Source: the human T2T-CHM13v2.0 reference genome, Homo sapiens
Assembly (NCBI RefSeq): GCF_009914755.1
Contig: NC_060929.1
DNA: 64,000 bases
Reading direction: 5' to 3' (one strand)
Both the position numbers and the translations under genes were made by a program. Below are positions 21,348 to 23,258 of the stretch, piece by piece (positions within the stretch are counted from its first letter, which is position 1; each line of letters starts with the position of its first letter). The notes beneath the pieces were generated by a model. It saw only the letters and a program-made list of their open reading frames with translations. It was not told the DNA's origin and did no database searches.

Positions 21348-22045
21348 GGCTGGGCACGGTGGTTCAGGCCTGTAATCCCAACACTTTCAGAGGCTGAGGC
21401 GTTCGAGACCATCCTGGCCAACACGGCGAAACCCCGTCTCTACTAAAATACAAAAATCAGCCAGGCGTAGTGACAGGTGCCTGTAATCCCAGCTATTCTG
21501 GAGACTGAGGCAGGAGAATCTCTTGAACCTGGGAGACGGAGGCTGCAGTCTGCCTTGTCCTAGGTACCCCCAGTGACTGCCAAGGCTTCCACGTGTGTAG
21601 CACGAGGAGGAAGAACAGGAGAAACGACCTGAGTACAGCAGTCGGGTTCTTTTGGCTCTCCAGAGGGGTGACGCCATGTACGGCTGGCTGTAGGGTACAT
21701 GGGTCGAGAGACCGCCTGTGGCTCTCAGGGCCCAGCAGGGCTACCTCTTCCCCTTTATATTGTCTCAACTCTTCACCTCCTTTTAGTTCGCGATTCCTCT
21801 GTACCCCTGGCTCTGGGTCCCAGCCCCTATTCCTTCTGATTTGTCCCCCTTTCCCTTTGACTACATATATATGCTCCTCTCCTCCCAGATAGTGATGTTT
21901 TAGCTACATCTTATTTCTTCCGGCATTGATTCTTTTGAAAAATTTATTTCTGGCTGGGTGTGGTGGCTCATGCCTGTAATCCCAGCACTTTGGGAGGCCT
22001 GAGATCACACTACTGCACTCCAGCCTGGGCTACAGAGTGAGACTC
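21348..22045 (+). mobile_element. Alu split in two (21348-21549 and 22000-22045) by a 450-bp insertion
   Basis: ...ggaggctgcagt|insert|tgagatcacactactgcactccagcctggg...aaaa continues the Alu consensus. Confidence 0.85.
21550..21999. repeat. Left arm of 450-bp inverted repeat
   Basis: reverse complement of 22809-23258 with 2 mismatches and no indels (checked base by base). Confidence 0.97.
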
Positions 22046-22173
22046 CATCTCAAAAAAAAAAAAAACTTTATCCCTGATATTTGTGGTACCAATGTCTGAA
22101 GCTGTCATGGTCTTGGTGCATAGCACCTATGTGAGAGCACCTATTTCTTTTCCACAAATAATAGACTGTAAAC

Positions 22174-22856
22174 ATTTTTTTTTTTTTTTTTTTGAGACAA
22201 GGTCTCGCTCTGTTGCCCAGGCTGGAATGCAGTGGCGCAATCTCGGCTCACAGTAACCTCTGCCTCCCAGTTTCAAGCGATTCTCCTGCCTCAGTCTACC
22301 AAGTAGCTGGGACTACAGGCGCCTGCCACCACGCCCGGCTCCACGCCCGGCTAATTTTTTGGATTTTCAGTAGAGATGGGGTTTCACCGTGTTAGCCAGG
22401 ATGGTCTCGATCTCCTGACCTCGTGATCCGGCCGGCTGCCTCGGCCTCCCAAAGTGCTGGGATCACAGGCGTGAGCCACCGCACCAGCCAAACTTTTAAT
22501 CTTAGCAATTTTGTGGGTTTTCCCCTCTAAGTGGGTGTATTTTTGAGGAGGAGCTAATTTTTTTTTCTTTTTTTTTTTTTTTTGAGACGGATTCTTGCTC
22601 TGTCACCCAGGCTGGAGGGCAGTGGCGCAATCTCAGCACACTGCAACCTCCTCCTCCTGGGTTCAAGCGATTCTCCTGCCTTAGCCTCCTGAGTAGGTGG
22701 GATTACAGGCACGTGCCACCACGCCCGGCTAATTTTTGTAGAGATGGGGTTTCACCATGTTAGGCAGGCTATTCTCGAACTCCTGACCTCAGGTGATCCG
22801 CCTGCCTCGGCCTCCCAAAGTGCTGGGATTACAGGCATGAGCCACCACACCCGGCC
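22174..22856 (-). mobile_element. Two Alus (~22174-22489, ~22558-22856); the last 48 bp of the second lie in the right IR arm
   Basis: poly-T tails plus Alu consensus. Confidence 0.9.
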
Positions 22857-23258
22857 AGAAATAAATTTTTCAAAAGAATCAATGCCGGAAGAAATAAGAT
22901 GTAGCTAAAACATCACTATCTGGGAGGAGAGGAGCATATATATGTAGTCAAAGGGAAAGGGGGACAAATCAGAAGGAATAGGGGCTGGGACCCAGAGCCA
23001 GGGGTACAGAGGAATCGCAAACTAAAAGGAGGTGAAGAGTTGAGACAATATAAAGGGGAAGAGGTAGCCCTGCTGGGCCCTGAGAGCCACAGGCGGTCTC
23101 TCGACCCATGTACCCTACAGCCAGCCGTACATGGCGTCACCCCTCTGGAGAGCCAAAAGAACCCGACTGCTGTACTCAGGTCGTTTCTCCTGTTCTTCCT
23201 CCTCGTGCTACACACGTGGAAGCCTTGGCAGTCACTGGGGGTACCTAGGACAAGGCAG
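22809..23258. repeat. Right arm (probable donor copy) of 450-bp inverted repeat
   Basis: reverse complement of 21550-21999; contiguous with an uninterrupted Alu and unique ARL10-upstream DNA. Confidence 0.97.

What the first reader, a model, noticed from the sequence alone, without database searches (positions are those of the whole stretch)
21550..23258. 450-bp near-perfect inverted duplication of ARL10-upstream DNA pasted into an Alu, mirroring one element toward two divergent promoters
Seen: 21550-21999 is the reverse complement of 22809-23258. 448/450 bases match with no indels, and both mismatches (21789/23019, 21955/22853) are CpG-type transitions. The spacer is 809 bp. The left copy splits an Alu (...ggctgcagt | copy | tgagatcacac...), with only a few Alu bases lost and no TSD or polyA, and it ends in the head of the donor-side Alu. 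About 400 bp is non-Alu sequence carrying CACGTG (23213), a CRE half-site CGTCA (23135), a TATA-like ATATAAAG (23048) and retained CpGs. Inference: a replication template switch (FoSTeS/MMBIR-type, with Alu microhomology) copied the segment recently, or gene conversion keeps the arms identical. KIAA1191 (-) and ARL10 (+) now each have the same element upstream in the same relative orientation. The arms could also mediate recurrent inversion of the spacer or form stem-loops, and short reads would mis-map here.
Basis: partly seen in the sequence, partly recalled or inferred. Interest (0 to 1): 0.8.

Follow-up and report, generated by a model that had tools for sequence, protein, structure and literature searches.

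The report
Young local inverted duplication upstream of ARL10
A 450-base piece of DNA just upstream of the human ARL10 gene was copied, flipped and pasted 0.8 kb away into an Alu element; it is a real and fairly young structural mutation, but nothing yet shows that it does anything.

Summary
21550-21999 is the reverse complement of 22809-23258, with 448 of 450 bases matching, no indels and an 809-nt spacer. Both mismatches are CpG transitions, one on each arm. Of 27 inverted pairs of 200 nt or more in the window, this is the only one above 90%. The 399 non-Alu bases occur exactly twice in the whole T2T-CHM13 genome.

The right arm is the donor. The left arm splits an Alu, with 4 target bases lost and no target-site duplication or poly(A).

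The layout matches the 1-4-3-2 template-switch pattern but is far larger than catalogued short-range events. The joints also resemble class 2 templated insertions.

With mutation rates recalled from memory, the age comes out at about 4 My (0.5-15).

A regulatory role is unsupported. No RefSeq functional element overlaps either arm. Published ARL10 promoter reporters that contain the right arm showed no HIF response.

Presence in apes or other human genomes, polymorphism and spacer inversion could not be tested here. I read this as a new member of a known kind, of modest interest.

The parts
22809..23258 (+). Right arm, the donor copy. 49 nt of the head of a minus-strand Alu (22809-22857) plus about 401 nt of unique DNA lying 576-1025 nt upstream of the ARL10 start (23834).
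   Evidence: It is continuous with its flanks: the Alu continues to about 22549 and the ARL10 upstream DNA continues beyond 23258. 448/450 to the left arm.
21550..21999 (-). Left arm, the inserted inverted copy, 1396-1845 nt upstream of the KIAA1191 start (20154).
   Evidence: It interrupts an otherwise continuous Alu. It is the reverse complement of the right arm.
22000..22808 (.). 809-nt spacer: the target Alu's 3' piece (22000-22065), 98 nt unique, a minus-strand Alu (about 22164-22491), 57 nt unique, and the body of the donor-side Alu (about 22549-22808).
   Evidence: It sits in the original orientation, because the target Alu's 3' piece still follows the left arm in the same sense as its 5' piece.
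21347..21549 (+). 5' piece of the target Alu, ending at Alu reference position 223.
   Evidence: Local alignment to two neighbouring Alus; sub-threshold SRP-type Rfam hit at 21460-21558.
22000..22065 (+). 3' piece of the target Alu with its A-tail, starting at Alu reference position 228. It is 82% like the donor-side Alu, so it is not part of the copy.
21549..21550 (.). Outer joint: 0 nt of shared bases between the target flank and the donor's continuation.
21999..22000 (.). Inner joint: donor Alu position 49 joined to target Alu position 228, with 0 nt shared, or 1 nt (C) if the last lost target base is counted.
22164..22491 (-). Middle Alu. Before the insertion it formed a closely spaced inverted pair with the target Alu (about 114 nt apart). 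The insertion point lies in that predicted stem.
   Evidence: (I3, I6, I7) and 31: 236 predicted pairs, DNA MFE -235 kcal/mol against -90 for shuffles.

Best explanation
One mutational event in the human lineage copied 450 nt from just upstream of ARL10 (about 401 nt of unique DNA plus the first 49 nt of an adjacent Alu). It pasted the copy in inverted orientation 809 nt away, inside another Alu, and removed 4 target bases.

The most likely route is a local template switch. A 3' end left its template inside the target Alu, copied the nearby segment from the opposite strand, and returned 4 nt further on. This is order 1-4-3-2 in the four-point model, scaled up to 450 nt. The trigger may have been a stalled fork or break at the closely spaced inverted Alu pair in which the target lay.

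Shown: the anatomy, the direction of copying, the blunt-like joints, and the young age relative to the Alus. Inferred: the replicative or repair route, the trigger, and neutrality.

The product is a 99.6% identical inverted repeat. It has no demonstrated function, will confound short-read mapping and primer design, and is a plausible but untested substrate for inversion of the spacer.
For: - The arms are 448/450 identical with sharp ends.
- The target Alu is split, with 4 nt lost and no TSD or poly(A).
- The unique part has only two places in the genome, so it is not a transposable-element family.
- No RNA family falls in the unique part.
- This is the only listed inverted pair above 90% in the window.
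- The point order 1-4-3-2 is one of the two majority patterns that create single inverted repeats in great-ape template-switch events (PMC7954356, passages).
- Nearness and inverted orientation are intrinsic to a strand switch.
- The pre-insertion target lay in the stem of an inverted Alu pair about 114 nt apart.
- There is one CpG transition per arm, and the Alu head's CpG decay is shared by both arms. This fits a recent copy of old sequence.
- The two differences give about 4 My (0.5-15 My) using mutation rates recalled from memory.
Against: - The joints carry 0 to 1 nt of microhomology. This fits end-joining capture of a fragment as well as, or better than, microhomology-primed switching.
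- Catalogued short-range switch events are much smaller. The median copied stretch is 12 nt, the maximum 128, searched within +-100 nt (PMC7954356). So membership in that class is by analogy.
- Only one genome was available. No empty site was seen in any outgroup or other human genome, so a recent origin cannot be separated from homogenisation by gene conversion.
- Inverted Alu pairs are common in this Alu-rich region, so the trigger argument is weak.
- Neutrality is assumed from lack of evidence, not shown.
Confidence: 0.72

Rival explanations
1. The same copy-paste product arose by double-strand-break repair. A DNA or cDNA fragment of the ARL10-upstream region was captured into a break in the target Alu by non-homologous end joining. 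This is the 'class 2 templated sequence insertion' type. The cDNA could come from upstream antisense transcription.
For: No TSD, no poly(A), a 4-nt microdeletion and 0 to 1 nt of microhomology. These are the junction features given for class 2 TSIPs (PMC5110952, abstract and passages). The 450-nt size is close to the experimental range of 73-414 bp given there.
Against: Class 2 insertions are described as templated from distant regions, with no preference for nearby sequence. Here the donor is 809 nt away on the same molecule. The copy ends 49 nt into an Alu, not at any transcript landmark. No transcript is annotated over the arm in the hub table.
Confidence: 0.3
2. The duplication is old (shared with other apes or monkeys), and the arms are kept nearly identical by ongoing gene conversion between them.
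For: Inverted repeats this close can convert each other (established knowledge). The data come from one genome, so age rests only on 2 differences.
Against: Identity ends abruptly at both original joints, with no eroded edges. There is one private CpG change per arm, as expected for simple divergence. Without conversion, an age above about 15 My is outside the 95% range (recalled rates).
Confidence: 0.15
3. The duplicated segment is a cis-regulatory element. Its mirror copy now acts on KIAA1191 as the original acts on ARL10.
For: The arm lies 576-1025 nt upstream of the ARL10 start and holds CACGTG, a CRE half-site and a TATA-like word. CACGTG occurs 10 times in 64 kb against 5 expected, or about 0.07 per 450 nt. 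Template switching that expands inverted repeats near promoters has been proposed to shape a yeast promoter (PMC13100816, search listing and abstract only). Most ARL10 promoter fragments gave more reporter signal in VHL-null cells than in VHL-restored cells (PMC13310816).
Against: No RefSeq enhancer or silencer overlaps either arm; the nearest is 23299-23548, 41 nt outside (hub table). The arms have CpG o/e 0.36, and the CpG island starts near 23700. The reporter constructs map to 22280-23818, 22587-23818 and 22997-23818, and they contain the arm or its outer 262 nt. They showed no DMOG response, and the authors conclude there is no active HRE upstream. The HIF ChIP peak is in intron 1. The motifs are short. 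The left copy sits 1.4 kb from the KIAA1191 start, beyond its CpG island.
Confidence: 0.08
4. The left arm is an assembly artefact of T2T-CHM13.
For: Only one assembly was examined with tools.
Against: The copy is embedded cleanly in an Alu, with an 809-nt spacer, and it differs from the source at two CpG sites. Fold-back read artefacts give perfect, spacer-less palindromes (established knowledge). 450 nt is far below HiFi read length. From memory only, and not from any call: the GRCh38 distance from the KIAA1191 start to the ARL10 start is 3,680 bp, the same as 20154 to 23834 here. If that is right, GRCh38 also holds both arms.
Confidence: 0.02

Closest known systems
Template-switch mutations under the four-point model (Loytynoja & Goldman 2017, PMC5453318, listing only; Walker et al. 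2021, PMC7954356, passages read)
   Same: A stretch replaced or inserted as the reverse complement of nearby sequence on the same molecule. Point order 1-4-3-2 creates a single inverted repeat, with a small net loss at the return point.
   Different: Scale. Catalogued events have a median copied stretch of 12 nt and a maximum of 128, with templates within about 100 nt. Here 450 nt was copied from 809-1259 nt away, outside the range those scans search.
FoSTeS / MMBIR rearrangements (Hastings et al. 2009, PMC2621351, listing only)
   Same: A copy-number gain with an inverted templated segment, no TSD, and Alu-rich surroundings.
   Different: The joints show 0 to 1 nt of microhomology rather than the usual few nt (the usual range is recalled). 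There is a single simple segment, and it is sub-kilobase rather than kilobase-to-megabase.
Class 2 templated sequence insertion polymorphisms (Onozawa & Aplan 2016, PMC5110952, abstract and passages)
   Same: No TSD, no poly(A), a target microdeletion, little or no microhomology, and a size of a few hundred nt.
   Different: Those templates are distant, often on other chromosomes, and are thought to be RNA-derived. Here the donor is adjacent in cis. Polymorphism was not tested.
Inverted-repeat-flanked (NAHR) polymorphic inversions (Porubsky et al. preprint 10.1101/2021.12.20.472354, passages; Aguado et al. 2014, PMC3961182, listing only)
   Same: Flanking inverted repeats of 200 nt or more. 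132 of 183 resolved balanced inversions have them, and the 9 Alu-flanked ones have a median size of 685 bp, close to this 809-nt spacer.
   Different: No inverted allele has been seen here. CHM13 carries the original orientation. Candidate-based scans start from segmental duplications of 1 kb or more (PMC13629690), so this pair would not have been tested.
Genome-wide catalogue of intrachromosomal repeat pairs of 200 bp or more at 80% or more (Fernandez-Luna et al. 2024, PMC11794170, abstract and one section)
   Same: The pair meets the catalogue's thresholds in T2T-CHM13. More than 600,000 inverted pairs are listed per assembly.
   Different: The catalogue's median identity is 84% and median distance about 31 Mb. 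This pair is 99.6% identical and 809 nt apart, and mostly non-repeat DNA. The locus was not found in the 2 held supplementary files.

Membership tests
Template-switch mutation, four-point model | A segment that is the reverse complement of nearby sequence on the same molecule | tested here: met
   448/450.
Template-switch mutation, four-point model | An ordered set of four switch points explaining the change in one event (here 1-4-3-2) | tested here: met
   Leave at 21549, land at 23258, leave at 22809, return 4 nt past the leaving point. The pattern is defined in PMC7954356.
Template-switch mutation, four-point model | Short range (template within about 100 nt; copied stretch of tens of nt) | tested here: not met
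   450 nt was copied from 809-1259 nt away, against a maximum of 128 nt and +-100 nt.
Template-switch mutation, four-point model | An ancestral sequence without the change in a close relative | not testable with these tools
   No primate or other human assembly is on hand. The ape T2T paper's supplements were unreadable.
FoSTeS / MMBIR | Microhomology of a few nt at each joint | tested here: not met
   0 nt at the outer joint and 0 to 1 nt at the inner joint.
FoSTeS / MMBIR | Replicative origin (stalled or collapsed fork) | not testable with these tools
   There is only an indirect hint: the target lay in the stem of an inverted Alu pair.
Class 2 templated sequence insertion | No TSD, no poly(A), and end-joining marks such as a microdeletion | tested here: met
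   definition.
Class 2 templated sequence insertion | Template from a distant genomic region | tested here: not met
   The donor is 809 nt away on the same strand axis.
L1-mediated retrocopy / class 1 insertion / twin priming | Target-site duplication, poly(A) tail, TTTT/A target | tested here: not met
   The target lost 4 nt, the insert has no A-tail, and the target site is GCAGT|GAGC-like inside an Alu.
Segmental duplication | Length of 1 kb or more at 90% or more identity | tested here: not met
   450 nt. The definition is restated in PMC13629690.
Dispersed repeat / transposable element | Many copies in the genome | tested here: not met
   The 399 non-Alu bases have 2 places in the own genome, which are the two arms. 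That search scores only the best candidates.
NAHR inversion locus | Flanking inverted repeats of 200 nt or more with high identity | tested here: met
   450 nt at 99.6%; the longest perfect tract is 239 nt.
NAHR inversion locus | Both orientations of the spacer seen in a population | not testable with these tools
   There were no rows for this locus in the held supplements of PMC12350169 (2 of 3 files) or PMC6748972 (12 of 18 files). The Cell 2022 inversion paper is not held.
Cis-regulatory element (enhancer or promoter module) | Experimental or annotated regulatory activity of the segment itself | tested here: inconclusive
   No RefSeq functional element overlaps the arms (hub table). Reporters that include the arm gave no HIF response. 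The text does not give the arm's contribution to basal activity.

The most novel reading that the evidence does not exclude
The pair is a human-lineage-specific, mid-range template-switch product, from a size class that current template-switch scans and segmental-duplication-based inversion scans both miss. Its 99.6% identical arms would now flip the 809-nt spacer recurrently. When crossed by upstream antisense transcription from either promoter, the arms would give a near-perfect 450-bp double-stranded RNA (449 of 450 predicted pairs). Such an RNA would be an ADAR, Dicer or MDA5 substrate, and it would tie KIAA1191 and ARL10 regulation to a new structural feature.
Probability: 0.08. Interest if true: 0.6.

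Novelty: new member of a known kind. Interest (0 to 1): 0.3.

Why it matters
- It is a clean, datable example of an inverted copy-paste event in the gap between short-range template switches (tens of nt) and segmental duplications (1 kb or more). Both joints are intact and the target is known, so it is useful for calibrating mechanisms.
- Reads shorter than 450 nt cannot be placed uniquely inside the arms.
- At least one published primer has a second perfect site in the left arm.
- ChIP, ATAC or methylation signal over the ARL10-upstream segment may be split or dropped by mappers.
- If the left arm proves human-specific or polymorphic, or the spacer flips, the locus would gain interest for KIAA1191 and ARL10/miR-1271 regulation.

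Tried and rejected
Models rejected:
- Retrotransposition or twin priming: no TSD, A-tail or L1 sequence.
- Inversion with breakpoint duplication: both pieces of the target Alu keep the same sense and order, so the spacer is not inverted.
- In-register Alu-Alu recombination or fold-back priming: that would give a hybrid Alu joined at equal positions. The joint instead links position 49 to position 228, and the 3' piece is only 82% like the donor-side Alu.
- Dispersed repeat: only 2 places in the genome.
- RNA gene in the arms: only Alu/SRP-derived sub-threshold hits, none in the unique part.

Literature searches:
- 'ARL10' + 'KIAA1191' + 'inverted' gave 0 papers.
- 'ARL10' + 'inversion' + 'inverted repeats' gave 0 papers.
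- 'KIAA1191' + 'inversion' gave 2 papers, judged unrelated from their titles and abstract starts in the listing.

Supplement searches for the locus, by gene names and by coordinate prefixes that rest on recalled GRCh38/GRCh37 offsets:
- No hits in PMC11794170 (2 files).
- No hits in PMC12350169 (2 of 3 files).
- No hits in PMC6748972 (12 of 18 files).
- The ape T2T paper's single held file had no readable text.

Calls that led nowhere:
- The Cell 2022 inversion paper is not held.
- A PMC id recalled from memory was wrong and returned an unrelated paper.
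Full report
**1. Observation**

The repeat scan found arms 21545-21999 and 22809-23263, 99% complementary, 809 nt apart. 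A base-by-base check shows that the true repeat is 21550-21999 against 22809-23258. It matches at 448 of 450 positions with no gaps, and the match falls to random level immediately outside both ends.

The two mismatches are 21789 C / 23019 A and 21955 T / 22853 G. In each case one arm keeps a CpG and the other has the TpG/CpA product. The left arm keeps the first CpG and the right arm keeps the second. So there is one private CpG transition per arm.

As a control, 27 inverted pairs of 200 nt or more were found in the 64-kb window, of which 25 were listed. Among those listed, only this pair exceeds 90%. The others are 73-90% and at most 302 nt, which is Alu size.

The 399 non-Alu bases of the arm have exactly two places in the whole own genome (T2T-CHM13, 3.1 Gb), and these are the two arms. 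That search scores only the best candidates. The segment is therefore unique DNA duplicated locally, not a repeat family. Rfam gives only Alu/SRP-type sub-threshold hits, and none falls in the unique part of the arms.

**2. Anatomy and direction of copying**

I aligned the flanks of the left arm to two neighbouring Alus.
- 21347-21549 matches Alu positions up to 223.
- 22000-22065 resumes at position 228 and runs into an A-tail.
- Both pieces have the same sense.

So the left arm interrupts one Alu. Four target bases are missing, nothing is duplicated at the target, and the insert has no A-tail.

The right arm is continuous with its surroundings. Its inner 49 nt is the head of a minus-strand Alu that continues to about 22549. 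Its outer end runs on into ARL10-upstream DNA. Hence the right arm is the donor and the left arm is the copy.

The 3' piece of the target Alu is only about 82% like the donor-side Alu. It therefore did not come along with the copy.

Both Alu pieces keep their order and sense, so the spacer is in its original orientation. This excludes an inversion that duplicated its breakpoint.

**3. Joints**

Written in one sense, the outer joint shows no shared base between the target flank and the donor's continuation. The same holds for the inner joint. If the last lost Alu base is C, as in both neighbouring Alus, the inner joint could share 1 nt.

The inner joint links donor-Alu position 49 to target-Alu position 228, which is out of register. 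An in-register Alu-Alu recombination or fold-back priming is excluded.

**4. Age**

The inferred ancestral arm has 12 CpG dinucleotides. I used per-generation rates recalled from the literature, not taken from any call: about 1.1e-7 for CpG transitions and about 1e-8 elsewhere, with 29 years per generation. Two differences then give about 4 My, with a Poisson 95% range of 0.5-15 My. Ignoring the CpG excess gives 6 My (0.8-23).

The CpG decay in the Alu head is shared by both arms. So the source was already old when it was copied.

The event may or may not postdate the human-chimpanzee split. Gene conversion could also make an older event look young. The sharp ends and the one-change-per-arm pattern fit simple divergence, but they do not exclude conversion.

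**5. Mechanism**

In the four-point notation for template switches, synthesis leaves at 21549, lands at 23258 on the other strand, copies to 22809, and returns 4 nt past the leaving point. This is order 1-4-3-2. Walker et al. report it as one of the two majority patterns that create single inverted repeats in great apes (PMC7954356, passages).

Their gold-standard events have a median copied stretch of 12 nt and a maximum of 128, with templates sought within about 100 nt. This event is the same topology at a much larger scale, and such scans would not find it.

The junction features are no TSD, no poly(A), a 4-nt microdeletion, and 0 to 1 nt of microhomology. These equally match "class 2" templated sequence insertions, which are attributed to break repair with a captured patch (PMC5110952, abstract and passages). 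Those templates, however, are described as distant, whereas here the donor is adjacent in cis.

I favour a local strand switch because nearness and inverted orientation are intrinsic to it. The near-absence of microhomology keeps end-joining capture as a serious rival.

A possible trigger exists. I left the left arm out in a script, without restoring the 4 lost bases, and folded the result as single-stranded DNA. The target Alu and the next Alu (about 22164-22491, opposite sense, about 114 nt away) are predicted to form 236 pairs. The MFE is -235 kcal/mol against -90 +/- 6.6 for 30 mononucleotide shuffles. The insertion point lies inside that stem.

Closely spaced inverted Alus are known fragile and fork-stalling motifs (PMC3855049, listing and abstract only; the rest is recalled). 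Such pairs are common in this Alu-rich region, so this is a weak inference.

**6. Function**

The geometric claim is true. Read toward each gene's start on its sense strand, both genes see the same sequence. The distances differ: 576 nt for ARL10 (start 23834) and 1396 nt for KIAA1191 (start 20154).

Evidence for regulatory activity of the segment is lacking.
- The arms are 52% GC with CpG o/e 0.36. The ARL10 CpG island begins near 23700 and the KIAA1191 island ends near 20300.
- In the hub's RefSeq table no functional element overlaps an arm. The nearest enhancer (23299-23548) starts 41 nt beyond the copied segment.
- CACGTG occurs 10 times in the window against 5 expected from shuffles, or about 0.07 per 450 nt. 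CGTCA and TATAAA are shorter or commoner words.

A 2026 study of ARL10/miR-1271 cloned the ARL10 "promoter region" into reporters (PMC13310816; passages, sections 18-19 and the primer table read). Mapping its primers places the constructs at 22280-23818, 22587-23818, 22997-23818, 23310-23818 and 23618-23818.
- The first two constructs hold the whole right arm.
- The third holds its outer 262 nt, including CACGTG, which contains the ACGTG hypoxia-response core.
- Most promoter fragments gave more signal in VHL-null cells than in VHL-restored cells.
- None responded to DMOG.
- The authors conclude that there is no active HRE upstream, and the HIF ChIP-seq peak lies in intron 1.

The text does not give the arm's effect on basal activity. 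That study therefore argues against one specific role and leaves others open.

**7. Consequences that follow from the structure**

As a single strand, the 1709-nt unit is predicted to pair 449 of 450 arm positions in register. The MFE is -1292 kcal/mol as RNA and -760 as DNA. For duplex DNA, an 809-nt loop makes cruciform or lagging-strand hairpin formation unlikely (inference from established knowledge). For RNA it matters only if a transcript crosses both arms, and none is annotated.

For recombination, the longest perfect tract is 239 nt. In the Porubsky et al. preprint, 132 of 183 sequence-resolved balanced inversions have flanking inverted repeats of 200 bp or more. The 9 Alu-flanked ones have a median size of 685 bp, and most of them have under 90% arm identity. 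Inversion of this 809-nt spacer is therefore plausible.

It is, however, unobserved. CHM13 has the original orientation. Candidate-driven scans start from duplications of 1 kb or more (PMC13629690). I found no row for the locus in the held supplements of three catalogue papers. The coordinate prefixes I used rest on recalled offsets, some files were not searched, and the main inversion paper is not held.

Mapping ambiguity for reads shorter than the arms is certain. One published primer already has a second perfect site in the left arm, at 21792-21811 on the minus strand.

**8. Reality of the left arm**

An artefact is very unlikely. The copy has a spacer, sits cleanly within an Alu, differs from its source at two CpG sites, and is far shorter than HiFi reads.

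From memory only, and not checked by any search: the GRCh38 coordinates of KIAA1191 and ARL10 give a gene length of 15,746 bp and an intergenic distance of 3,680 bp. Both are identical to the window (4409-20154, and 20154 to 23834). If that is right, GRCh38 also carries both arms.

**9. Verdict**

The microhomology detail is not supported. The regulatory reading is unsupported and, for HIF, contradicted.

No paper was found on this repeat. It is a new, well-preserved member of a known kind of mutation, a local inverted templated insertion, in a size range that is poorly catalogued. Its interest is modest unless comparative or population data show it to be human-specific, polymorphic or flipping.

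Noticed in passing
window 17154-17451 and 18502-18799: An inverted Alu pair (298 nt, 90% complementary) brackets KIAA1191 exons 17828-17914 and 18158-18265 (hub table). This layout is known (recalled) to favour back-splicing into circular RNA.
   Followed up: no
window 56846-57052 and 57236-57442: An inverted Alu pair, 88% complementary and only 183 nt apart, in a CLTB intron. It is a closely spaced quasi-palindrome of the kind considered fragile.
   Followed up: no
window 21792-21811 (minus strand) and 22997-23016: The 'ARL10 Promoter Segment 2' forward primer of PMC13310816 has two perfect sites, one in each arm. Primers, guides and probes designed in the ARL10-upstream segment are not unique.
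   Followed up: yes
window 21458-22857: Sub-threshold Rfam hits to mir-1268, mir-3135 and MIR2646 all lie inside Alus. They reflect Alu-derived miRNA families, not genes at this locus.
   Followed up: partly
window 21347-21549: The target Alu lacks about 21 nt of its left monomer relative to two neighbouring Alus (alignment gap). This is an older internal deletion unrelated to the duplication.
   Followed up: no
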